Of a stretch of DNA of 64,000 nt, positions 64 to 60,104 are shown piece by piece. A program made the position numbers and the translations under genes. The number at the start of each line of letters is the position of its first letter. The stretch's first letter is position 1. The notes under the pieces were generated by a model. That model was not told where the DNA came from. It saw only the letters and a program-made list of their open reading frames with translations, and ran no database searches. Source of the stretch: Deltaproteobacteria bacterium (GTDB lineage: Bacteria; Bdellovibrionota_C; UBA2361; J135); the NCBI GenBank assembly GCA_020635175.1, contig JACKAH010000002.1, positions 15,406 through 79,405 on the forward strand, given 5' to 3'.

Positions 64-1104
64 TTAGCTTCTAAACCTACGGGATAGAGTAAATTGAACT
101 CTATAATCAGGTGTTAGCTCTTCTGATGAATCATCTTTCTTAATTGGAAAATCTATTCCAAGACTTCCATACCAAAGTCCTGAATTTGAAAAGCTAAGCT
201 GAGGGCCAAGGTAAAGGACAGTGTCATCTGATCCCTCAATATCTGAACCATTAATCTGATCTTTTGATTTTATTTCGCCTGAGAAGCGTAATCGAAGATC
301 GACCGTTGAATCCTCGCTAGGTGCGTAGAAGTAACCTGCTGCTAAGTTGAACTGTAGGTCATTGCCGTACTGATAATCATAATCACCTTCGGTTCTAATT
401 GATCCCTGCAAGCTCCCACTGTAAGAGATAAACCTGTACTGACCAAAGAAGCTAGCCCCAAGTATATAATCTAAAGATCCGCTTCCAAGGGCTAAATCGT
501 CGCCAGCAACAAAATTTCCATCTACGCTTCCATGTCGAAATATAGATCTCTCTTCAGCCTCGTCTTGCTCCTCAGCTAATCTGTCTGAATCACCACTTGG
601 CAGTTTGAATCCGCCGAAGAACTCATAGAAAAAGGAGCTTTCGCTAGAATAGATTTGTGCTGGTGTGTATTTAAAAAGGAGTGAGATATCACCTAGTCCG
701 GATTCCGAACCAGTTTCAATTACATTATCACTAATGCGTCTAAACTTTCGCTCTATTAGCGGTAGGTTCACCTGAACTCCAAATCTGTCAGTAAATCTAT
801 ATCCTGAGTAGATCTGTGTAGTGAAACTTTCAAGATGTTGCTTACCTAATATCTCTCTTCCAGGCAGTAAAGCAGGGGAGCCAAAGGATGTGTATTGGTG
901 AGTTGCTCCGATAAAGAAGGAATCTGCACTGACCCCTTGTGCTTCGATACTGTTATAGACGGCGCAGAGATCGCAAGCAGAAGAAACTCCAGCTCCAAGG
1001 GTAATGCAGCAAGCGAACATTAGAAATGTTCGCCTTAGCCAAATTGGTAACTTATTTCTACTCGATTTACTTAACATCAAAGAATACCACATCTTCAGGT
1101 CCAA
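64..1104 (-). CDS. Putative outer-membrane beta-barrel protein; the mature N-terminus carries a CxxC motif
   Basis: Signal peptide ...LMFACCITLGAGVSSA followed by CDLCAVYNS. Alternating amphipathic strands run throughout (DLRLRFSGEIKS, LYLGPQLSFSNSGLWYGSLGIDF) and the protein is rich in Gly/Ser/Tyr. The start is probably an internal Met (MLSKSS...), because the ORF overlaps the upstream gene by 38 nt. Confidence 0.6.
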   Translation of the reverse strand: MDLKMWYSLMLSKSSRNKLPIWLRRTFLMFACCITLGAGVSSACDLCAVYNSIEAQGVSADSFFIGATHQYTSFGSPALLPGREILGKQHLESFTTQIYSGYRFTDRFGVQVNLPLIERKFRRISDNVIETGSESGLGDISLLFKYTPAQIYSSESSFFYEFFGGFKLPSGDSDRLAEEQDEAEERSIFRHGSVDGNFVAGDDLALGSGSLDYILGASFFGQYRFISYSGSLQGSIRTEGDYDYQYGNDLQFNLAAGYFYAPSEDSTVDLRLRFSGEIKSKDQINGSDIEGSDDTVLYLGPQLSFSNSGLWYGSLGIDFPIKKDDSSEELTPDYRVQFTLSRRFRS

Positions 1105-30557: not shown

Positions 30558-31877
30558 ATGTCATCGTTGGCAGTAGTTGGAGCACAGTGGGGAGATGAAG
30601 GTAAGGGTAAACTTGTAGATTACTTAACTTCTCAAGCTGATTTTGTGGTCCGTTTTCAAGGTGGAAATAATGCTGGGCATACACTAGTTGTAGACGGGGT
30701 GACTACAAAATTAAGCCTTGTTCCATCAGGGATATTGCATGAGGCAACTTGCTGCTTACTTGGTGCAGGGGTTGTCGTGAATCCGGAAGTTTTTATTCAG
30801 GAAGTTAATGGACTCAAAAAAGCTGGAGTCAGAGTTGATCCATCAAGGCTCGTAATCGATCGAGACGCTCATCTGATTTTGGATTATCACATTGAGATCG
30901 ATAAGGCTCGAGAAGAGATGCGAGGCAAAGATAAGATAGGTACAACAGGGCGTGGAATTGGCCCATGTTATGAAGATCGTGCGCAGAGAGTCGGAGTTAG
31001 GTTTGCTGAGCTAAGGCTCTTAAGTGAGCTTAAGCCAAGATTGCAAAAGCTTGTTGAGCATAAAAATAGATATCTTGTTGATCTACTAGGTGCTGAATCA
31101 CCTGTCGACTTTGATAGTCTCTGGTCAAAACTAGAAAACATCTCAGAGATTTTATCTCCTTATATCGGTGATGTGAGTCATTTATTAAATCGTGCAAGAT
31201 TACAGGAAAAGAAGATTGTTTTTGAAGGAGCACAAGGAACGCTTCTAGATCAAACTTTTGGAACGGTTCCGTTTGTTACCTCTTCCAATACTATTTCTGG
31301 TGCAATCACTACCGGCTGCGGTGTTGGCCCAAAGACAGTTGATTATGTCTTAGGGGTAGCAAAGGCTTATTGTACAAGAGTAGGAAGTGGACCATTCCCG
31401 ACAGAATTAGAAGGTGAGACAAGTGACTATCTAAGAGAAAAGGGTAGTGAATTTGGAACTGTAACAAATAGGCCGAGAAGGTGTGGTTGGTTTGATGCAG
31501 TCGCAATGAAAAGGGCAGTTGGTTTGAATGGTCTTGATTCATTAGTGATAACAAAGCTAGACGTCCTTAGTGGACTTGAGGACTTGAAGGTTTGTATAAA
31601 GTATAAAATTGATGGCAAGGAGATAGAAGAATATCCGTCACTTTCTTCTGAGCTTGAAAAAGTTGAGCCTGAGTACATAACTCTTGATGGATGGAGTGAA
31701 GATATCACTTCTGTACGCAAATGGCATGAGTTGCCCCCTGCTGCTAGATTGTATATCAGCACGTTATCTGAAATCCTTGGTATCCCTGTAAGTATTGTGA
31801 GTGTCGGAGCGGAGAGAGAATCAACTCTCTTTTCTAGAAGTGCTAAATTTGTGAAAAACTTTATGATGTCAGTATGA
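30558..31877 (+). CDS. purA: Adenylosuccinate synthetase
   Basis: GAQWGDEGKGK, GGNNAGHT, GTTGRGIGPCYEDR and RRCGWFD. Confidence 0.97.
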   Translation: MSSLAVVGAQWGDEGKGKLVDYLTSQADFVVRFQGGNNAGHTLVVDGVTTKLSLVPSGILHEATCCLLGAGVVVNPEVFIQEVNGLKKAGVRVDPSRLVIDRDAHLILDYHIEIDKAREEMRGKDKIGTTGRGIGPCYEDRAQRVGVRFAELRLLSELKPRLQKLVEHKNRYLVDLLGAESPVDFDSLWSKLENISEILSPYIGDVSHLLNRARLQEKKIVFEGAQGTLLDQTFGTVPFVTSSNTISGAITTGCGVGPKTVDYVLGVAKAYCTRVGSGPFPTELEGETSDYLREKGSEFGTVTNRPRRCGWFDAVAMKRAVGLNGLDSLVITKLDVLSGLEDLKVCIKYKIDGKEIEEYPSLSSELEKVEPEYITLDGWSEDITSVRKWHELPPAARLYISTLSEILGIPVSIVSVGAERESTLFSRSAKFVKNFMMSV

Positions 31878-33232
31878 ACGTAATAGCAAAAAAAACTCAG
31901 AATCAATATTCGATTCTTATAATCGATGACGAGGAAGCAATTCGTAAAACATTAACGAGCGTCTTTCAAGATGAAGGATACTTAGTAGAGAGTGCGTCTG
32001 ATGGAGAAAAAGGCTTAGCTGCTCTGTCAAAAGTTAAGCCCTCATTGGTTCTGCTTGATATCTGGATGCCAGGAATGGATGGTATTGAAACTTTGAAGCG
32101 TATTAGAGAGGAGTTTCCTGATCTGCCTGTAATCATGATTAGTGGACACGCTACAATTGCAACAGCTACTGAAGCAATGAAGCTAGGTGCTGCCGATTTT
32201 ATTGAGAAACCGCTTGATTTGAGCAGTACTTTGGAATCAGCCAGAAGATCTCTTGGCATGCTAGATGAAGCTAAGCAAGAGAGTGGATATCGCCAGTTCG
32301 CAGAAAATTGTGTTGACCAATCGGAGAATTTTAAAAATCGAAAAATAGAAGCGCTTAATCCAATTGTATTTGCAGATAGATCGCTTGCAGGAAGGTCCTT
32401 TCCACAAAGAACACTTAAGAGTTCAGCTTTATTGTATGGACAAGGTCTTCACAGTGGTAAAAAAAGTGGTTTAATATTGGAGCCATTGCCTGAAAATTCT
32501 GGAATTCACTTTATTGGAGTAAGTGAAACTACAGCAGTTCCTGCACACGTTAACTTTGTAGAATCAACAGGTTTTGCCACAACGGTTCGACTTGGAAAAA
32601 CACAAGCAGGTACGATTGAGCATTTGATGTCAGCTCTGCATGCATATGGTATTACCAATTTGTTAATTAAGTGTAATGGCGAAGTCCCAGTAATGGATGG
32701 GTCAGCGATTGAATTTTGTTCGCTTTTTGATGATATAGGTGTTGAAGACCAGAATGGCGAGTGGTTTGAGATCGAGATAAAAGAAAAGCTCACTGTTGGT
32801 AATGACTCTGAATTTATTACAATTGAGCCTGCTGATTCATTTACAATTGACTATACTCTTTCCTATCCTGAACCATTAGGTCATCAACATATGGTTTTTA
32901 CACTGAATGACGTTGATTCGTATAAGCAAGAGATTGCACCTGCTAGAACATTTGGGTTTGTTAAAGACATAGAGTGGCTTCAAAGCCAGGGACTTGCTTT
33001 AGGAGGTCGATTCGATAACTTCGTTCTTTTTGGCGAAGAGGGAACGATTAATTGCGAATTACGATTTGAGAATGAGCCAGTTAGGCACAAAGTTTTAGAT
33101 GCCATTGGTGATTTATTCCTGCTAGGCCGTCGAATCCGTGGTAAGGTAACTGCTAGAATGAGCGGACATTCTGATAATATCGCTCTACTTTCAAAGATAA
33201 GAGACAAGCTAAAAGAGGCGGCGCAGAATTAG
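31874..33232 (+). CDS. lpxC: Response-regulator receiver domain fused to UDP-3-O-acyl-N-acetylglucosamine deacetylase
   Basis: N-terminal REC, about residues 10-125: ILIIDDEE, LLDIWMPGMDG, MISGH, IEKPL. C-terminal LpxC from RTLKSSALLYGQGLHSGKKS onward: TIEHLMSALHAYGI, FGFVKDIEWLQSQGLALGG, VRHKVLDAIGDLFLLG and SGHSDN. The start overlaps the purA stop (ATGA). Confidence 0.9.
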   Translation: MNVIAKKTQNQYSILIIDDEEAIRKTLTSVFQDEGYLVESASDGEKGLAALSKVKPSLVLLDIWMPGMDGIETLKRIREEFPDLPVIMISGHATIATATEAMKLGAADFIEKPLDLSSTLESARRSLGMLDEAKQESGYRQFAENCVDQSENFKNRKIEALNPIVFADRSLAGRSFPQRTLKSSALLYGQGLHSGKKSGLILEPLPENSGIHFIGVSETTAVPAHVNFVESTGFATTVRLGKTQAGTIEHLMSALHAYGITNLLIKCNGEVPVMDGSAIEFCSLFDDIGVEDQNGEWFEIEIKEKLTVGNDSEFITIEPADSFTIDYTLSYPEPLGHQHMVFTLNDVDSYKQEIAPARTFGFVKDIEWLQSQGLALGGRFDNFVLFGEEGTINCELRFENEPVRHKVLDAIGDLFLLGRRIRGKVTARMSGHSDNIALLSKIRDKLKEAAQN

Positions 33233-39372: not shown

Positions 39373-40122
39373 ATGGGTGCGTGCAATAATAAGCTAAAAG
39401 ATAGTATTGAGAAAGAAACCATAACTTCTCCAAAGAAATCCTCAAAGAAGCGCAGTAAAAGTTTTACGATTGATTTAAGAATTCATACGCCAGCATCAAT
39501 CGGTTATTTTGGTATAGAGGGTGTTGATACTGCACCTGCCATGGTTAGCCTAGCAAAGGTGAAAGGGATTGACTTAATTGCTGTTACAGATTTCTATACT
39601 GGTGAGTATATCGATAAGATTATGGATGCCGCAAAGGACACTCCTGTTACTATTATTCCGGGGGTTGATATCCGATGCTCGTTAAATAATTGTGATGACG
39701 TTGTGCTAACTTGTCTTTTTCCTGAGACATTTGGCTCAACTAATGTCCAAGATTATTTACACGCATTAGATATTCCTAAGTCGGTGGTGGGGAATAGAAA
39801 GTATCTGGTTCGTAAGAGCTTTGATACAATTTTGCAAACATTAGAAGATTTTGGAGGCGTTGCCTTGCCGAGTCGCATGGACAAAACCCCTCACAGATTA
39901 AGCGTCTTGCCGGCACTTATACAAGACTATGGTTTTAGAACATTTGATTTGGCTTATGCAGATTCAACTGAATATTTTAAAGCCAAGTGGCCAAAAATAA
40001 AATTCAATCTGTTTAGCTTTTCAAATGCGAATTCTTTAGCTCAGCTTGGTAGCCGTACTGCTAAGGTTAAAATGTCTGATGCTACGTTTCAAGGATTAGC
40101 TCAGCTCACTTCTAGAGTATAG
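39373..40122 (+). CDS. PHP-domain-like protein with degenerate metal-binding motifs
   Basis: IDLRIHTPAS resembles PHP motif I (DLHxHT), with the first His replaced by Arg. IAVTDFYT resembles motif II (iTDH), with His replaced by Phe. Confidence 0.5.
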   Translation: MGACNNKLKDSIEKETITSPKKSSKKRSKSFTIDLRIHTPASIGYFGIEGVDTAPAMVSLAKVKGIDLIAVTDFYTGEYIDKIMDAAKDTPVTIIPGVDIRCSLNNCDDVVLTCLFPETFGSTNVQDYLHALDIPKSVVGNRKYLVRKSFDTILQTLEDFGGVALPSRMDKTPHRLSVLPALIQDYGFRTFDLAYADSTEYFKAKWPKIKFNLFSFSNANSLAQLGSRTAKVKMSDATFQGLAQLTSRV

Positions 40123-54949: not shown

Positions 54950-55195
54950 AATCTCCCTTTCAATTAGGATCACGTGGAGCGGCTATTGTGTCAATATAAC
55001 GAGGTTTTAGTAAAATTGCTTAAGGCTGAAAATCTATAGTTGTTTAAGGTGGTTATTCTGCTGATCCAAAAAATACTGAAGCTAAAATGTGGTATTTTCC
55101 TACGATGAATAGCTGTTTGGAGAGCTATGCAGTTTTCCTAAAAGTTACACGATAAAATATAGATAATAGATATCAAATTTCATGTTGAGCACGAG

Positions 55196-55978
55196 ATGTT
55201 TACAATTCATGAACAACCTTCAAACATTGCTGATCTCAATCAGAGGATTAGTGAATTAACTTCTGAGATTTTTTCTGCTCTAAGCCCAAGGCAGGAGTCA
55301 TTAGTCTTTCCAAGAGGGCACTGCTTTATTCCAAATGAGATTCATCAGGGCAAGTTCTATATCGTTAGAGAAGGTTTTCTCTGTTTCCAATTATCTGATC
55401 ACACCTTGTTATTTTTTGAGAAGGGAGATGTTATCGGTTGGGGAGATAGTTTGCCCACAGCTTGTAAAATCGTTACCGACTGTGACGTAGTAGTTGATGA
55501 GTTTTCAAAAGTAGATTTTCTTTCTCATATTTCTAATGATGTAGAGTTGTCAGCTAAATGGGCTCAGTTTATTGATATAAATCATAGTCTTTTGTTCTCT
55601 TTCATCGCTGAGAAGTATCGTGATGAATTTGCTGCAGATCCTAAGACAAAGCATTTTAGAGCTGGAGATGTGATTATCCACGAAAAGGAAGCTGCAGCTG
55701 AAGTCTTTACGCTTTTGCACGGTACTGCTGATGTCTTCGTTGATGATGTTCAGGTTGGGGAGGTTTTATCAGGAGAGATCTTTGGTGCAATGGCTGCCGC
55801 TATAAATACCCCGAGATCTGCAACAGTTAAAGCAAGAACAGATTGCTTAGTTGCGGTAGTTGAAAAAGATGATTTCTTAAATTTAGTCAGAACACATCCA
55901 AAAACAATTCTAAAGATGTTTGAAGATATGTCGCGAGTTGTAATTTCACAAAATGAAAAGTTAGCCGCTAAGGGATAG
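55196..55978 (+). CDS. Stand-alone cyclic-nucleotide-binding domain protein (two CAP_ED-like domains)
   Basis: The second domain is canonical: FRAGDVIIHEKEAAAEVFTLLHGTADVF...GEIFGAMAAAINTPRSATVKA. The first domain is divergent. There is no output domain. Confidence 0.8.
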   Translation: MFTIHEQPSNIADLNQRISELTSEIFSALSPRQESLVFPRGHCFIPNEIHQGKFYIVREGFLCFQLSDHTLLFFEKGDVIGWGDSLPTACKIVTDCDVVVDEFSKVDFLSHISNDVELSAKWAQFIDINHSLLFSFIAEKYRDEFAADPKTKHFRAGDVIIHEKEAAAEVFTLLHGTADVFVDDVQVGEVLSGEIFGAMAAAINTPRSATVKARTDCLVAVVEKDDFLNLVRTHPKTILKMFEDMSRVVISQNEKLAAKG

Positions 55979-56030
55979 TGGCGTTCGAAATATTACAGAA
56001 TTAAAAATCACAAATAATTAGGCTTGGCGA

Positions 56031-56078
56031 GCGGGGGCCAGAGAGGTTTGCCTTAGCAAAAACCTATCTGACCCCCGC
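56031..56078. terminator. GC-rich extended hairpin between convergent genes
   Basis: gcggggg (56031-56037) pairs with cccccgc (56072-56078). An inner pairing gaggttt/aaacct(a)tc is also present. It lies 33 nt downstream of the minus-strand HAD-like stop and 53 nt downstream of the plus-strand cNMP-binding gene. Confidence 0.55.
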
Positions 56079-56110
56079 CCGCCTGCAGAAGCACTCCGAG
56101 AAGTCGTCGG

Positions 56111-57088
56111 TCAGGCGCTCGCGCCAGCTGTGACGGTATCCGGGTCCGCGTCGGGGATCGGATGCTCGACGCGCAGTCGCTCGACGAGCGGCATCCAGCT
56201 CTCAGCAGGCATGTAGATGATCTCGAAGTAGGTCCTCTTCTTCATGCCATCAGCGTCGCGGCTGAGATGCGCTCCTTGTTCGATCATGTCGGCGAGGCGA
56301 CTGAGTTCGGTCGAGAGACGCCTGTCAGTTGCACAGAGCAGGACTCGACCACCGGCTCGCCAGGCCGAGATGACGCCTTCCGCGGTGTTCTCGAAGCAGA
56401 GACCGGGCAGATCTGCTCCCATCTTCTCGCAGGCCATCCGGAACGGTTTTCCGTGAGGCTTGCCGTATCCAGGCGGGATCTGATCGCCAGTGACCCGATG
56501 TGCGTGGAAGCTATCCAGGCCGAAGATCTTGAAGAAGTGACCGAGGTTCGTGCTGTCGGTGTTGGTCACCGTCGTGCTCTCGAACCCAAGCGCGTGCAGG
56601 TGTGCCATCAGTGGCAGAAAGCCATCGACCACTTCGAAGTCACCGCTTTCGCCTGTACGAGCCAGCTCCTCCAGGTGCTCGCTCAGGATCTGCTTCTTGA
56701 GCGCGACCAGCTCCTCGGGTTCGACTCCTTCGAACAGAGCGATCAGCTCCGGTGGCAGGTTGTCCTGTTGATGTCTGATGCGGTGCAGCACCTGACGGAA
56801 GGCGAGGATCTCCTGCCCCCCGAAACAGGATCCGAGAGTTCGCCACTCGGGTTCGTGAAGACGCTGTCGGATGCGTCGCTCCAGAGCGAGTCTCTGAAAA
56901 CGAGCATGGATGTGCTCAGTAGCGACCTGACTTCCGTCGAAGTCCCAGCAACATCGTCTAGGTTGTCTTGCGATCAGGATGCTGCCAGTGAAGTCAGACA
57001 GCGCAAAGATTTGAGGTGTGGGTGTTACCACCTGTAGCCCTCCCGCCAGGTGTAGTGGTTTTGTGATCTCGTCGTTTGACGATTGCAT
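56111..57088 (-). CDS. HAD-superfamily (subfamily IA-like) hydrolase with an atypical motif IV
   Basis: Motif I WDFDGS (D48/D50). Helical cap of about residues 55-160. Motif II TTVTNT, motif III GKPHGKPF. Motif IV FENTAEGVISAWRAGG reads EN where ED is usual. There is no SD before the ATG at 57088. An in-frame GTG at 57031 is preceded by GGGAGGG (57038-57044) with 6-nt spacing. Confidence 0.7.
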   Translation of the reverse strand: MQSSNDEITKPLHLAGGLQVVTPTPQIFALSDFTGSILIARQPRRCCWDFDGSQVATEHIHARFQRLALERRIRQRLHEPEWRTLGSCFGGQEILAFRQVLHRIRHQQDNLPPELIALFEGVEPEELVALKKQILSEHLEELARTGESGDFEVVDGFLPLMAHLHALGFESTTVTNTDSTNLGHFFKIFGLDSFHAHRVTGDQIPPGYGKPHGKPFRMACEKMGADLPGLCFENTAEGVISAWRAGGRVLLCATDRRLSTELSRLADMIEQGAHLSRDADGMKKRTYFEIIYMPAESWMPLVERLRVEHPIPDADPDTVTAGASA

Positions 57089-57093
57089 GCAGG

Positions 57094-57146
57094 GGACATG
57101 CGGCTAGATATCTTGCTTTGGTTAAAAGAGATCTAGTCGCATGTCC
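57094..57146. other. Long imperfect inverted repeat abutting the start of the GC-rich gene
   Basis: ggacatgcg+gctagat (57094-57109) pairs with atctag+t+cgcatgtcc (57131-57146), giving 9-bp and 6-bp stems around a 21-nt loop. It lies 5 nt upstream (minus-strand sense) of the ATG at 57088. Confidence 0.5.
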
Positions 57147-57208
57147 TAAACTTGCATTTGTGCACTACATGAAAACGGGAGGAGAAAAACCAAATATAAA
57201 TCTCTAGC

Positions 57209-57244
57209 CCTCAACTCATATTGATCTTGAAAATTTAGTTGAGG
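57209..57244. other. 8-bp stem-loop in the manA upstream region
   Basis: cctcaact (57209-57216) pairs with agttgagg (57237-57244) across a 20-nt loop. Confidence 0.3.
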
Positions 57245-57299
57245 CAATTCAACTACTCAGGCCTACAGATCCAAAGAAACGTTAGCTAATTACTAATAC

Positions 57300-58700
57300 A
57301 TGAGTAAGGTTATTGCAATCATACCACAGGTAGCTGCCTTGGTTGTATTGCATAAAATTCTGCAGTATAAAGAGGCTCCTATGGAATGCGGTATCGACGA
57401 GTCTGATGGTTTAGATGATCAAGGATTGCCACTTAGTGGCGCTGACGATAGTGGTGTCTCAGGAGATTTGGAAATTGTTGCAGAAACTAGGAGAGAACTA
57501 GTGATTGACCATCCCCTTGCATTAACTGGAGTTTTACAGACCTACGGTTGGGGAAAGATAGGTGAGCTCTCAAAAGCAGCTCAACTGCACGGTGAATTCG
57601 ATCAGGGAACACCTTACGCTGAGCTTTGGTTGGGGGTTCATCCAAATGGCCAAGCTATCACCACTCTGAATGGCCAGACTACAAACTTTGCAGATATCTG
57701 TGCAGCATCCCCTACACAAATTTTAGGTCCTCAAGTTCAAGAATTATACGGAGAGCTTCCGTTCCTCTTTAAAGTCTTAAGCATTGGACAACCACTTTCA
57801 ATTCAGGCCCATCCCGACCCCGAGCTTGCTAAAGTTTTACATGCGGCTGATCCAGATCATTATCCCGATGATAGACACAAGCCTGAGATAGCGATTGCAA
57901 TTACGTATCTAGAGTATCTACGTGGTTTTAGATCTATCTCAGAAATTTCGGAGAATTTTAAAAGGAGAGAACCCTTAAAAAAACTTTTAGGGCCAGATCT
58001 AGCACAACGTCTCCAAGATTATGCGAATCATGATTCAGAGCAACTTCTAAGAGATGTTTATCAAGCAGTTATGCGAGCTGATGCTGATCTTTTAGAAACA
58101 GTAACTACTGAAATGCTAAGCGCTATAGACGTTGAAGGCGAGGTATCACGCGAAGATGAATGGTTTAAAACTCTAGCTGAAGATTACCCAAAAGGTGATG
58201 TCGGTATGATTAGCTTTTATCTGCTAAATCTTGGGCGGATTGAAAAGGGTCAGGCTATCTTCACTGGTCCTGGTATCCCGCATGCTTATCTTGCTGGAGA
58301 TATTGTCGAGGTGATGTCGAACTCTGATAATACTGTAAGAGGTGGCATTACTCCTAAGTTTATCGATGTTGAAAACCTCTTATCAATGCTGACCTATGAA
58401 CAGGGCCAGATGCCTCTCGTTGAGACAACGCCTTTAAGTCAAAGTAAAGGAGTAAGATATGTTACTCCAGCCCCTGAATTTGTAGTCGATTTATTTGATA
58501 ATGATTGTATTTCAGAGCAGCATTCAACTAATCAAGGTGTTCAGCTTGTTTTTTGCTTGTCTGGGAGTGCAAATTTAGAAGTGTCTGGATCTGCCTTTGA
58601 GCTAAAGCCTGGAGGCGCTTTAATTATACCAGCATCTTGTCCTGATTATACTTTAACCGTAAATGAAGGATCCATGTTTAGAGTTAGTGTTGCCGCGTAA
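57300..58700 (+). CDS. manA: Mannose-6-phosphate isomerase, class I, with an acidic N-terminal extension
   Basis: ELWLGVHPNG, LPFLFKVLSIGQPLSIQAHPD, HKPEIAIAIT and IPHAYLAGDIVEVMSNSDNTVRGGITPKF. The conserved core begins near residue 75. The internal ATG at 57381 is preceded by aagagg and may be the true start. Confidence 0.9.
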   Translation: MSKVIAIIPQVAALVVLHKILQYKEAPMECGIDESDGLDDQGLPLSGADDSGVSGDLEIVAETRRELVIDHPLALTGVLQTYGWGKIGELSKAAQLHGEFDQGTPYAELWLGVHPNGQAITTLNGQTTNFADICAASPTQILGPQVQELYGELPFLFKVLSIGQPLSIQAHPDPELAKVLHAADPDHYPDDRHKPEIAIAITYLEYLRGFRSISEISENFKRREPLKKLLGPDLAQRLQDYANHDSEQLLRDVYQAVMRADADLLETVTTEMLSAIDVEGEVSREDEWFKTLAEDYPKGDVGMISFYLLNLGRIEKGQAIFTGPGIPHAYLAGDIVEVMSNSDNTVRGGITPKFIDVENLLSMLTYEQGQMPLVETTPLSQSKGVRYVTPAPEFVVDLFDNDCISEQHSTNQGVQLVFCLSGSANLEVSGSAFELKPGGALIIPASCPDYTLTVNEGSMFRVSVAA

Positions 58701-58703
58701 GTT

Positions 58704-60104
58704 ATGTTTAATCAAATTACCCATCCGTTAGTTCTTAAGTATCTGCCAGCTGCAAAACCTGAAAATTATGATGATCTATTTGATGAGCTGCTCGCTGCTG
58801 CTAAGAGGACTTCAACGGGAGAAGAAGGGCAAAAATTTGCTGCACTTCAAAGTTTTGTGCCGGTGGAGACGAGCGAAGCTCTATCTGAGCAGATCTTAGT
58901 AATTGATGTAGGTGGCACATACGTTCGAGTTGCACTTAGAGCAATTGATGCTGAGGGAAATTGTAATTGGCAAGCTCTGCTTAGGGCTAGAAATTATGAA
59001 CTGATTAAGGAGGATATCTCTGGAACTCTATTTTCTCAGATGAGAGAGTGTGTGGTTCGTCAGGTTATAGATAAGCTTGAGGAACTTTCGATTGATAAAG
59101 CTTCTATTAGTGGTCTTGGTATAGTTTGGTCAAATGCACTTAATTGCTATGAGCTTAAGGAAAATGGATGCAGAGGTGTCTCTGGTCAAGTTGTAGGAAA
59201 AGATCACGGTAAGTTTTATGTTAAGGGAGAGCCTTGGAATCCAGATCTACATGATGGTGATGATATCGGTCTTGCTTTCTTAGAGACCTTCAAGGAATTT
59301 GGCTTTAAAATGAAAGCCTTTGTGATTTCAAACGATACTATCTTTACTCAAAAAACTGTACCAGAAGCAACTTCAGGTATGGTTGCTTCTACTGGAACAA
59401 ACGTGACTTATATTGAGCCAGGAGAGAAGCTGCTTAGAAACTCAGAAGCTGGAAATGCTTTTATAGTTCCAGAAAAATTTCAGCACAAAGCAGATCAGAT
59501 CTCAGAAGATCTTTTTAATATAGAATGTTTTATAGCAGGTCGAGCTATGCAACGTAGGTTTGCTTCTCATTTAGTTTATTTGGCTAAAGAGATTTGCTCA
59601 GATAATTCACAGTCTAAAGAGTTAAGAGGAAGATGTCAGAAGATCTTAGATAGATTATGTAGGGATAATTTTTATCTAACTGCATTTAAAGGTAAAGACT
59701 TAACAGCGCTCGTCTCAAAGGACTTTGAGCGTTTTCTTGAGCTGCGTGAAGACGATGCTGAGTTATATCGTGACGATGAGTTTCTAGAGTTACTACGACA
59801 AATTGCACTAAATATTGTGCTGCGAGGTGGAACACATGCCGCAATGTTAGCATACGTCTCTGTTTACAATCAGTTAGAGAACGGAGAAGATGGTTTAGTT
59901 ATTGCCTTAGACAGTAGTCAAGCACATCTATTACCTTTTTATTATGACGCCTTTAAACAAGAGTTTAATCAGATTCTAAAATCTCGTTGCCCAGGTAAAG
60001 ATATATCTGTTGAGCTTATTGATCAGGGTGAAGGTAGGGTGATAACAGTTCCTATGCGCGGTGCTGCTTCTGCAGTAAATGATTTTTTAGCAATGGGTGC
60101 ATAA
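58704..60104 (+). CDS. Hexokinase-fold sugar kinase (divergent)
   Basis: ILVIDVGGTYVRVAL compares with hexokinase LAxDLGGTNFRV. VISNDTIFT compares with LxNDTVGT. VASTGTNVTYIE compares with GTGxNxxYxE. VIALDSSQAHLLPFY compares with DGSVYxxxPxF. Confidence 0.65.
   Translation: MFNQITHPLVLKYLPAAKPENYDDLFDELLAAAKRTSTGEEGQKFAALQSFVPVETSEALSEQILVIDVGGTYVRVALRAIDAEGNCNWQALLRARNYELIKEDISGTLFSQMRECVVRQVIDKLEELSIDKASISGLGIVWSNALNCYELKENGCRGVSGQVVGKDHGKFYVKGEPWNPDLHDGDDIGLAFLETFKEFGFKMKAFVISNDTIFTQKTVPEATSGMVASTGTNVTYIEPGEKLLRNSEAGNAFIVPEKFQHKADQISEDLFNIECFIAGRAMQRRFASHLVYLAKEICSDNSQSKELRGRCQKILDRLCRDNFYLTAFKGKDLTALVSKDFERFLELREDDAELYRDDEFLELLRQIALNIVLRGGTHAAMLAYVSVYNQLENGEDGLVIALDSSQAHLLPFYYDAFKQEFNQILKSRCPGKDISVELIDQGEGRVITVPMRGAASAVNDFLAMGA

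What the first reader, a model, noticed from the sequence alone, without database searches (positions are those of the whole stretch)
56021..57146. Sharply bounded islet of about 60% GC carrying one HAD-like gene in a 28-40% GC genome
**Composition.** GC content jumps within a few bases at both edges. My hand counts give 58-60% GC inside and 28-38% GC in the flanking lines. Codon choice is dominated by CTG, ATC, TTC, GAG and GCC-type codons, unlike every other gene in the window. A 291-aa shadow ORF appears on the opposite strand, as expected for high-GC DNA.

**Structure.** The segment carries its own GC-rich terminator hairpin (56031-56078) and a 53-nt inverted repeat at the other end (57094-57146). 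I saw no integrase, transposase, tRNA or target-site duplication.

**Protein.** It has HAD motifs I-III, but motif IV reads EN instead of ED. It also has N-terminal and C-terminal extensions of about 45 and 70 aa.

**Interpretation.** This is either a very recent single-gene acquisition from a high-GC donor by an unknown mechanism, or an assembly or contamination chimera. Its position divergent from the manA / hexokinase-like operon suggests a sugar-phosphate phosphatase role.
Basis: partly seen in the sequence, partly recalled or inferred. Interest (0 to 1): 0.75.

Follow-up and report, generated by a model that had tools for sequence, protein, structure and literature searches.

The report
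Single foreign high-GC phosphatase gene islet
One complete gene for a rare sugar-phosphate phosphatase, with about 60% GC, sits in a 41% GC bacterial chromosome next to a mannose-6-phosphate isomerase gene; it is most likely an ordinary horizontal gene transfer, unusual mainly for its sharp left edge and for how rare the protein is.

Summary
Maximum-likelihood segmentation places a 60.1% GC block at 56021-57104, against 39.1% in the flanks and 41.2% for the whole window. Its one real gene, a HAD hydrolase on the minus strand, has GC3 of 0.69. The other 47 ORFs average 0.327 +/- 0.031, so z = 11.6. Tetranucleotide, dinucleotide and amino-acid composition are also foreign. Both hairpins and the 291-aa shadow ORF exist.

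There are no repeats at the junctions and no tRNA or mobility gene. The window is core chromosome of an NCBI MAG labelled Deltaproteobacteria bacterium.

The protein is a C1-capped HAD-IA sugar-phosphatase-type enzyme. It has only two real relatives (41% and 32% identity) among 1.84 billion cluster representatives. All three share an E-N motif IV. The 29 other HADs aligned have E-D.

The one relative with readable context also lies divergent from a type I mannose-6-phosphate isomerase gene, in a uniformly ~50% GC contig. This argues against a chimera and for a functional link to manA.

Best reading: a real single-gene horizontal acquisition from an unsampled GC-rich donor, integration mechanism unknown. 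No reads or close host relatives were available, so misassembly is not formally excluded. This is a new member of a known kind, of modest interest.

The parts
56021..57104 (.). Compositional islet core, 60.1% GC. It may extend to 57146, the outer foot of the second hairpin.
   Evidence: Maximum-likelihood segmentation; GC profiles; tetranucleotide z = 16.7 and dinucleotide signature z = 4.9.
56026..56083 (-). GC-rich hairpin with a 24-bp imperfect stem and a 10-nt loop. It lies 27 nt downstream of the HAD stop codon and forms the left end of the islet. It is terminator-like but has no adjacent U-tract.
   Evidence: Inverted repeat I2, 88% complementary. Fold of -54.5 kcal/mol for 56000-56113 (-), z = -5.96. 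Unique in the window.
56111..57088 (-). Longest ORF of the HAD-IA hydrolase, 325 aa, identical to NCBI MCB9029657.1. The probable true CDS is 56111-57031 (GTG start, 306 aa). Motif I is D49-x-D51-G-S, motif II is T175, motif III is K210 and motif IV is E233-N234.
   Evidence: Pfam PF00702 and PF13419. Homologues P0002 and P0003. Exact protein match to the NCBI record. Structure model with pLDDT 79.9 and residues 1-20 disordered. Motif columns.
57038..57044 (-). Shine-Dalgarno-like GGGAGGG, 6 nt upstream of the GTG at 57031.
   Evidence: Read from the sequence. The ATG at 57088 has no such site.
57094..57146 (.). Inverted repeat with 21-nt arms (19 of 21 matching) and an 11-nt spacer, about 50% GC, just upstream of the HAD gene in the divergent HAD-manA intergenic region. 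It could be a 5' leader hairpin or an operator. It is unclear whether it belongs to the foreign DNA or to the host.
   Evidence: Fold z = -5.6 (minus strand) and -6.7 (plus strand). An alternative partner for its left arm lies at 57188-57209.
56162..57037 (+). Shadow ORF of 291 aa on the strand opposite the HAD gene. It is not a gene.
   Evidence: No Pfam or PHROG match. The codon-position GC pattern and all homology support the minus-strand frame.
57501..58700 (+). Type I mannose-6-phosphate isomerase (manA), host-like composition with GC3 of 0.30. The ORF is open from ATG 57300, but the probable start is GTG 57501 after AGGAGAG. It is the divergent neighbour of the HAD gene.
   Evidence: TIGR00218 at 235 bits. 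Pfam PMI domains. Homologues align only from residue 73. Sequence.
58704..60104 (+). Possible divergent hexokinase-type sugar kinase, immediately downstream of manA.
   Evidence: Pfam Hexokinase_1 at 21.2 bits and Hexokinase_2 at 21.5 bits, both just below their cut-offs but in the correct N-to-C order. No NCBIfam match. No PDB sequence match.
55196..55978 (+). Host cNMP-binding-domain protein. It converges on the HAD gene and ends 42 nt before the islet.
   Evidence: PF00027 at 79.8 bits. GC3 of 0.30.

Best explanation
The block 56021 to about 57104-57146 is one horizontally acquired gene unit. It consists of a terminator-like hairpin, the CDS, a ribosome-binding site and a short leader. It came from an unsampled donor with roughly 60-64% GC and now sits in a core-chromosome intergenic space of a 41% GC bacterium.

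It encodes a C1-capped HAD subfamily IA phosphatase of the sugar- or polyol-phosphate type. The protein belongs to a very rare clade marked by E-N in place of E-D in motif IV.

**Shown:**
- the foreign composition at nucleotide, codon and amino-acid level;
- the intact HAD catalytic motifs;
- the absence of mobility signatures;
- the divergent pairing with a type I PMI gene, both here and in the one relative with readable context.

**Inferred:**
- The gene entered by illegitimate (end-joining type) recombination. The donor fragment was perhaps delimited at its hairpins.
- It was retained because its product acts on a hexose or polyol phosphate of the mannose-6-P / fructose-6-P node handled by the neighbouring manA and putative kinase. 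Its role may be to drain or buffer that phosphate pool.
For: **Foreign composition.**
- GC is 60.1% inside and 39.1% outside.
- GC3 is 0.69 against 0.327 +/- 0.031, z = 11.6.
- Tetranucleotide z = 16.7. The GC-normalised dinucleotide signature has z = 4.9, beyond every control window.
- GARP (Gly+Ala+Arg+Pro) content, FYMINK (Phe+Tyr+Met+Ile+Asn+Lys) content and R/(R+K) are all outside the range of the other 47 ORFs. The protein itself therefore evolved in a GC-rich genome.
- GC1, GC2 and GC3 imply a source genome of 64, 64 and 60% GC.

**Real gene.**
- It passes the Pfam HAD thresholds.
- The profile matches the MtlD phosphatase domain at E = 3e-22, and also CbbY, HDHD1A and YniC.
- The fold search finds the same set.
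- Motifs I-IV align, and E-N is specific to the three clade members, 3 of 3 against 0 of 29.

**Against a chimera.**
- The block is a whole gene unit within the space between two host genes.
- P0003, one of only two relatives at E < 1e-25 among 1.84 billion representatives, is also divergent from a PMI type I gene, in a uniformly 47-52% GC contig.
- The three closest manA homologues have no HAD neighbour. The pairing therefore follows this HAD clade, not manA in general.

**Host context.** The surroundings are core chromosome: nuo, nusA-infB-truB, dnaE and lpxD-like genes.
Against: - Reads could not be mapped, and the record is a metagenome-assembled genome, so junction support is unknown.
- No donor or close copy was found anywhere. 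Neither the direction nor the date of transfer can be shown.
- No close relative of the host is available for an empty-site comparison.
- Conserved HAD-manA adjacency could instead mean the locus is ancestral. That fits a plain random insertion poorly.
- GC3 steps from 0.52 to 0.75 at codon 88 (p = 0.005). A simple one-piece transfer does not explain this.
- The substrate is unassigned, and N234 replaces a residue that normally binds Mg2+.
- The linkage argument rests on a single independent locus.
Confidence: 0.65

Rival explanations
1. In-situ xenologous replacement. The lineage already had a native HAD partner divergent from manA. That copy was displaced, wholly or in part, by a homologue from a GC-rich organism carrying the same rare clade. 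The position is then ancestral and only the sequence is foreign.
For: - The HAD-manA divergent pair recurs in L002, where the HAD gene has the same GC as its genome.
- Divergence between the window and L002 is similar for the two genes: manA 38% identity and HAD 30-32%.
- The two-tier GC3 inside the gene could mark a recombination joint.
Against: - The intergenic DNA (57147-57500) and manA are host-like right up to the block. No flanking homology is visible that could have guided a replacement.
- The 5' third of the gene still has GC3 of 0.52, well above the host maximum of 0.40, so no native remnant can be identified.
- Only one other locus supports an ancestral pairing, and the closest manA homologues lack a HAD neighbour.
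Confidence: 0.15
2. Assembly chimera or contamination. A fragment of about 1.1 kb from a GC-rich community member was spliced into the contig by the metagenome assembler or during binning.
For: - The source is a MAG contig of 182,581 bp.
- The sequence of this organism occurs only once in all searched collections.
- Exact look-ups of its proteins find no other contig.
- The left edge is base-sharp.
- Both ends coincide with long palindromes, which are difficult for assemblers.
Against: - Two misjoins 1.1 kb apart would be needed, returning to the same host intergenic space and excising exactly one complete foreign gene unit.
- No repeat is shared between the junctions.
- The inserted gene belongs to a three-member clade whose other context-known member is also next to manA. 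By my estimate, chance adjacency would be on the order of 1 in 1000.
Confidence: 0.12
3. A mobile cassette: an integron gene cassette, an IS200/IS605-type hairpin-ended passenger element or a MITE-like element, mobilised in trans.
For: - It is a single gene bracketed by two strong hairpins.
- It has no target-site duplication, as expected for the IS200/IS605 type or for integron cassettes.
Against: - The two hairpins are unrelated in sequence, and each is unique in the 64-kb window.
- The outer stem ends are GGCGGGC/GCTCGCC. They are not the RYYYAAC/GTTRRRY core sites of attC, as read.
- There are no terminal inverted repeats.
- No integrase or transposase ORF turned up among the ORFs of at least 150 aa that I scanned. 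About a dozen such ORFs were not scanned.
- No viral relatives were found.
Confidence: 0.04

Closest known systems
Genomic islets: single-gene or few-gene horizontally acquired inserts under 10 kb with atypical composition (my own knowledge of the genomic-island literature).
   Same: A sharp compositional anomaly confined to one gene unit in otherwise core chromosome, with foreign codon and amino-acid usage.
   Different: There is no tRNA, integrase, direct repeat or phage/plasmid remnant. The donor is unidentifiable. The gene lies beside a functionally linked gene, as in the one other clade member whose context is known.
HAD superfamily, subfamily IA variant 3-type C1-capped phosphatases: A. 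baumannii MtlD mannitol-1-phosphate phosphatase domain (7ocn), CbbY (4uar), HDHD1A (3l5k), E. coli YniC (1te2), beta-phosphoglucomutase.
   Same: Rossmann-like core with a helical C1 cap inserted after motif I. Motifs I-III are conserved. The profile match has E = 3e-22 and Foldseek gives probability 1.00.
   Different: Identity to solved structures is only 14-19%. Motif IV is E-N instead of E-D (3 of 3 against 0 of 29). The clade has a conserved N-terminal strand and a C-terminal helical extension of about 70 aa. The whole protein scores far below the curated cut-off of every NCBIfam family it hits.
P0003 (Logan SRR27422807 contig, locus L002): a fusion of a degenerate sigma-54-type AAA+ domain to a HAD domain, divergent from manA.
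   Same: Same HAD clade (E = 2e-25, E-N motif, same C-terminal extension) and the same divergent arrangement with a type I PMI gene.
   Different: It carries a 370-aa N-terminal AAA+ region that is absent here. Its gene has the same GC (48-51%) as its contig. No hairpins lie in its intergenic region.
Integron gene cassettes.
   Same: A single ORF followed by an imperfect palindrome, with no target-site duplication.
   Different: No attC core sites, no integrase and no cassette array. The insert has its own upstream leader.

Membership tests
HAD superfamily (PF00702) | Whole-protein score above the Pfam gathering threshold. | tested here: met
   PF00702 scores 35.5 bits against a cut-off of 26.4. 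PF13419 scores 26.6 against 23.8.
HAD superfamily (PF00702) | Motif I DxDG(T/S), carrying the nucleophile and the general acid/base Asp. | tested here: met
   W-D49-F-D51-G-S53. The motif I Asp-Gly is D51-G52 in at least 90% of 32 aligned HADs.
HAD superfamily (PF00702) | Motif II Thr/Ser and motif III Lys. | tested here: met
   T175 is invariant in the clade. K210-P211 are invariant in all 32 sequences.
HAD superfamily (PF00702) | Motif IV acidic pair (E/D-D) that binds Mg2+. | tested here: inconclusive
   E233 is invariant, but position 234 is Asn in the three clade members and Asp in 29 of 29 others. Whether Asn still supports Mg2+ binding and catalysis cannot be judged from sequence.
HAD subfamily I (C1 cap), sugar-phosphatase type | Helical cap inserted directly after motif I, and closest structures being C1-capped phosphatases. 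| tested here: met
   The model has helices 58-145 between strand 45-49 and strand 170-174. The top Foldseek and profile hits are HDHD1A, CbbY, the MtlD phosphatase domain and YniC.
Named NCBIfam equivalogs (phosphoglycolate phosphatase, beta-PGM family) | Score above the curated cut-off. | tested here: not met
   The best hit is TIGR01449 at 24.6 bits against a cut-off of 180. TIGR02009 scores 22.2 against 153.
Classical genomic island | Atypical composition relative to the host. | tested here: met
Classical genomic island | tRNA or tmRNA attachment site, integrase and flanking direct repeats. | tested here: not met
   There is no tRNA in 64 kb. No significant direct repeat lies at the junctions. 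No integrase appears among the ORFs I scanned.
Integron gene cassette | An attC site with RYYYAAC ... GTTRRRY core sites at the 3' end of the ORF, and an integrase or array nearby. | tested here: not met
   The hairpin's outer stem is GGCGGGC.../...GCTCGCC and has no AAC/GTT cores. It is a single unit with no array.
IS, MITE or IS200/IS605 passenger element | Terminal inverted repeats, or similar subterminal hairpins at both ends, with further copies in the genome. | tested here: not met
   No terminal repeats were found. The hairpins are dissimilar and each is unique in the window. The rest of the genome is not available.
Recent horizontal transfer | A near-identical copy in a donor lineage, or absence from close relatives of the host. 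| not testable with these tools
   The best homologue has 41% identity. No close host relative exists in the GTDB representatives, the JGI metagenomes or the protein collection.

The most novel reading that the evidence does not exclude
The E-N HAD clade may be a dedicated partner of type I phosphomannose isomerase. It may even act as a sugar-phosphate sensor or slow phosphatase with a regulatory role. The fusion to a degenerate AAA+ regulator-like domain in P0003 and the loss of the Mg2+-binding Asp both hint at this. On this reading, the window records a replacement of that partner at its cognate locus by a copy from a distant GC-rich lineage, achieved without flanking homology.
Probability: 0.1. 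Interest if true: 0.55.

Novelty: new member of a known kind. Interest (0 to 1): 0.3.

Why it matters
If the junctions are confirmed, this is an unusually clean example of a one-gene transfer across a gap of about 20 GC points. The gene has little apparent amelioration, no mobility machinery, and sits beside a functionally related gene. That makes it useful as a test case for illegitimate integration and for selection on insertion site.

The protein defines a tiny HAD clade: three sequences in about 15 billion. It has a conserved Asp-to-Asn change in motif IV and is linked to manA in both loci where context is visible. This gives a concrete biochemical hypothesis, a phosphatase acting on mannose-6-P, fructose-6-P or a polyol phosphate.

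None of this overturns current understanding. Atypical single genes are common in bacterial genomes.

Tried and rejected
- **Donor search.** The word-indexed search of 5.8 billion proteins found only the protein itself, both with the single sequence and with the clade profile. The exhaustive HMMER search found two relatives at 41% and 32% identity. Scans of JGI metagenomes and viral contigs with the clade profile found nothing. tblastn against plasmids gave only a 24%-identity Rhizobium hit. PHROGs gave none.\n- **Empty-site test in host relatives.** The manA scan of GTDB representatives gave only hits of 32-34% identity. The best manA homologue anywhere is 43% identical. The scan of JGI metagenomes with the cNMP-binding protein found nothing. 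Exact look-ups of the window's HAD and manA proteins found no other contig.\n- **Mobile-element signatures.** No terminal direct or inverted repeats were found, and no second copy of either hairpin. No attC core sites are present in the sequence. There are no tRNAs.\n- **Structured-RNA explanation.** No Rfam family reaches threshold. Only chance-level microRNA-model hits fall on the left hairpin.\n- **Shared regulatory motif.** No inverted repeat occurs in the L002 HAD-manA intergenic region.\n- **More distant HADs.** P0005 and P0006 have no manA neighbour, so the linkage is limited to the E-N clade.\n- **Literature.** Searches for a mannose-6-phosphate phosphatase gave nothing relevant.\n- **Shadow ORF as the real gene.** Rejected: it has no family match, and its frame is inconsistent with the codon-position GC pattern.
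Full report
**1. The observation**

The compositional anomaly is real and large.
- In 200-nt windows GC is 0.535-0.63 (mostly 0.575-0.63) from 56000 to 57099, and 0.32-0.475 on either side.
- At 1-kb resolution the bin 56001-57000 is 0.595. All 63 other bins lie between 0.367 and 0.443.
- A two-state maximum-likelihood segmentation of 55000-58000 puts the block at 56021..57104, with 60.1% GC inside and 39.1% outside.
- The left edge is abrupt: ...ACAAATAATT|AGGCTTGGCGAGCGGGGG.
- The right edge is graded: about 0.50-0.55 between 56900 and 57100, then 0.38-0.42.
- No 150-nt window elsewhere in the 64 kb exceeds 0.54.

The minus-strand ORF 56111-57088 has GC1/GC2/GC3 of 0.66/0.44/0.69. The 47 other ORFs of at least 150 aa have GC3 of 0.327 +/- 0.031 with a maximum of 0.40, so z = 11.6. 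GCC does not, at 0.22.

The anomaly is more than a GC effect.
- Tetranucleotide distance has z = 16.7.
- Karlin's GC-normalised dinucleotide signature has z = 4.9, beyond all 225 control windows.
- The protein's amino-acid make-up is also out of range: GARP (Gly+Ala+Arg+Pro) is 0.305, FYMINK (Phe+Tyr+Met+Ile+Asn+Lys) is 0.180 and R/(R+K) is 0.758. All three lie outside the range of every other ORF.

The protein itself therefore evolved in a GC-rich genome. The three codon positions imply a source genome of about 64, 64 and 60% GC.

- A hairpin at 56026-56083 has 24-nt arms that are 88% complementary and a fold z of -6.0.
- A palindrome at 57094-57146 has 21-nt arms matching at 19 of 21 positions and fold z of -5.6 and -6.7 on the two strands.
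- Each is unique in the window.

The 291-aa plus-strand ORF is a shadow ORF with no family match.

No tRNA and no Rfam family is present. There are no significant direct or inverted repeats between the two junctions.

**2. What it is**

*The host.* The protein is identical to NCBI MCB9029657.1, 'MAG: HAD family phosphatase [Deltaproteobacteria bacterium]', on a 182,581-bp contig. The window is ordinary core chromosome. It carries:
- a nuo operon, nusA-infB-truB, purA and an LpxC fusion;
- dnaE, nadC, birA and coaX;
- an lpxD-like gene, a threonine-dehydratase-like gene and tatC.

*The protein.* It passes the Pfam HAD thresholds but falls far below the cut-off of every NCBIfam family it hits.
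- A profile of the clade matches the phosphatase domain of Acinetobacter baumannii MtlD (mannitol-1-phosphate dehydrogenase/phosphatase, 7ocn) at E = 3e-22.
- The next matches are a HAD-IA variant 3 protein, CbbY, HDHD1A, beta-phosphoglucomutases and YniC.
- An AlphaFold model (pLDDT 79.9) shows the Rossmann-like core with a helical C1 cap between residues 58 and 145.
- Foldseek returns the same families at probability 1.00.
- Motif I (D49-x-D51-G-S), motif II (T175) and motif III (K210) are intact.

*Rarity.* The exhaustive search of 1.84 billion cluster representatives found only two real relatives.
- P0002 is 41% identical and 300 aa long.
- P0003 is 32% identical and 639 aa long, with its C-terminal half matching.
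- Everything else is a generic HAD at E > 1e-10.

*Clade signature.* In a 32-sequence alignment, motif IV is F-E-N-T in exactly these three proteins and E-D in the other 29. The C-terminal extension of about 70 aa and the N-terminal strand (residues 24-45) are conserved in the clade.

*Start codon.* Residues 1-19 are probably not translated, for three reasons.
- They have pLDDT below 50.
- P0002 starts where residue 20 aligns.
- The GTG at 57031 is preceded by GGGAGGG at the right spacing, whereas the ATG at 57088 has no such site.

**3. Context, the most informative result**

P0003 lies on a 13-kb Logan contig (L002). There it is transcribed divergently from a type I phosphomannose isomerase gene. 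This is the same arrangement as in the window, where HAD is on the minus strand and manA on the plus strand.
- L002 is uniformly 47-52% GC, including the HAD gene. High GC is therefore not a property of the family.
- P0002's contig is only 1,035 bp, at 49.6% GC, so it gives no context.
- The three closest manA homologues of the window (40-43% identity) have no HAD neighbour.
- The more distant HADs P0005 and P0006 have no manA neighbour.

The pairing therefore follows this particular HAD clade. By my estimate, chance adjacency to a given single-copy gene is on the order of 1 in 1000.

This has two consequences. The block is unlikely to be a random misassembly. And the enzyme most likely acts in the mannose-6-P / fructose-6-P node.

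*The neighbours.* The manA ORF is open from 57300. Homologues align only from residue 73, and a GTG at 57501 follows AGGAGAG. The divergent intergenic region is therefore about 410-470 nt, compared with 373 nt in L002. The ORF downstream of manA matches both hexokinase Pfam halves in the correct order, but both fall just below threshold. It has no PDB sequence match. 'Hexokinase-like' is therefore only tentative.

**4. How it most likely got there and what it does**

*Shown.* A complete gene unit with foreign composition lies in a host intergenic space: hairpin, CDS, Shine-Dalgarno site and leader. It has no tRNA, integrase, transposase, terminal repeats, attC cores or viral relatives.

*Inferred origin.* The gene was acquired horizontally from an unsampled GC-rich donor and integrated by illegitimate recombination. 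The foreign DNA ends 5 nt from the foot of the left hairpin. It may also end at the foot of the right palindrome. Breakage at hairpins could therefore have delimited the fragment, but this is speculation.

*Age.* GC3 is close to what GC1 and GC2 predict, so amelioration is limited. 'Very recent' cannot be claimed, because no donor copy exists.

*Inferred function.* The protein is a phosphatase acting on a hexose or polyol phosphate linked to PMI. It may drain or buffer the pool made by the putative kinase and manA. Its divergent transcription would allow opposite regulation.

*Alternative.* The pair could be ancestral, with the resident copy replaced in situ. That would explain the conserved position. 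However, no flanking homology or native remnant is visible.

**5. Unexplained**

GC3 inside the gene steps from 0.52 (codons 1-88) to 0.75 (codons 89-325). The permutation p is 0.005, and none of eight host control genes shows a step. Identity to P0002 does not change across this point. The cause could be a mosaic origin, selection on 5' mRNA structure, or chance. It remains open.

**6. What could not be done**

- No reads were available to test the junctions.
- No close relative of the host exists in the GTDB representatives, the JGI metagenomes or the protein collection. Presence/absence and dating tests were therefore impossible.
- I keep a chimera at about 0.12.

**7. Verdict**

This is a genuine, well-delimited single-gene compositional islet. 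It is best explained as a horizontal acquisition of a rare E-N-motif HAD-IA phosphatase that works with manA. It is a new member of a known kind, a genomic islet carrying a HAD phosphatase, and of modest interest at 0.3.

The most novel reading still open is that this clade is a dedicated, possibly regulatory, partner of PMI that was xenologously replaced at its cognate locus. I give that a probability of about 0.1.

Noticed in passing
window 56825-57088 versus 56111-56824: GC3 within the HAD gene is two-tiered. It is 0.52 for codons 1-88 and 0.75 for codons 89-325 (permutation p = 0.005). Eight host genes show no such step. The gene may be a mosaic.
   Followed up: partly
window 57300-57500: The first 67 codons of the annotated manA ORF have no counterpart in homologues and no Pfam match. 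A GTG at 57501 preceded by AGGAGAG is the likely start, so NCBI's 466-aa model is probably about 67 aa too long.
   Followed up: partly
window 57102-57123 and 57188-57209: The left arm of the 57094-57146 palindrome can also pair with a second partner 64 nt downstream (22 nt, 77% complementary). A further 8-bp stem lies at 57209-57245. Alternative structures or repeated CTAGA-type operator sites may exist in the HAD-manA intergenic region.
   Followed up: no
window 31874-33232 (+): A 452-aa protein fuses an N-terminal response-regulator receiver domain (PF00072, 112 bits) to a full LpxC deacetylase domain (PF03331, 275 bits). This architecture suggests phosphorelay control of lipid A synthesis.
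   Followed up: no
window 58704-60104 (+): A 466-aa protein downstream of manA matches Hexokinase_1 and Hexokinase_2 in the correct order, but both fall just below Pfam's cut-offs. It has no NCBIfam or PDB sequence match. It may be a very divergent hexokinase-type sugar kinase in a bacterium.
   Followed up: partly
L002 10001-11920 (+): P0003 fuses a degenerate sigma-54-interaction-type AAA+ domain to the E-N HAD domain. The AAA+ domain keeps a Walker A motif, but by eye has no GAFTGA loop and an altered Walker B. The gene lies divergent from manA. The architecture looks regulatory and seems undescribed.
   Followed up: partly
window 55196-55978 (+): This protein has a C-terminal cNMP-binding domain but no recognisable DNA-binding domain. 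Its N-terminal 140 aa match no family. No terminator of its own lies in the 42 nt before the islet, so it may rely on the islet's hairpin.
   Followed up: no
window 64-1104 (-) and 39373-40122 (+): ORFs of 346 aa and 249 aa with host-like composition have no Pfam match at E <= 1e-5.
   Followed up: no
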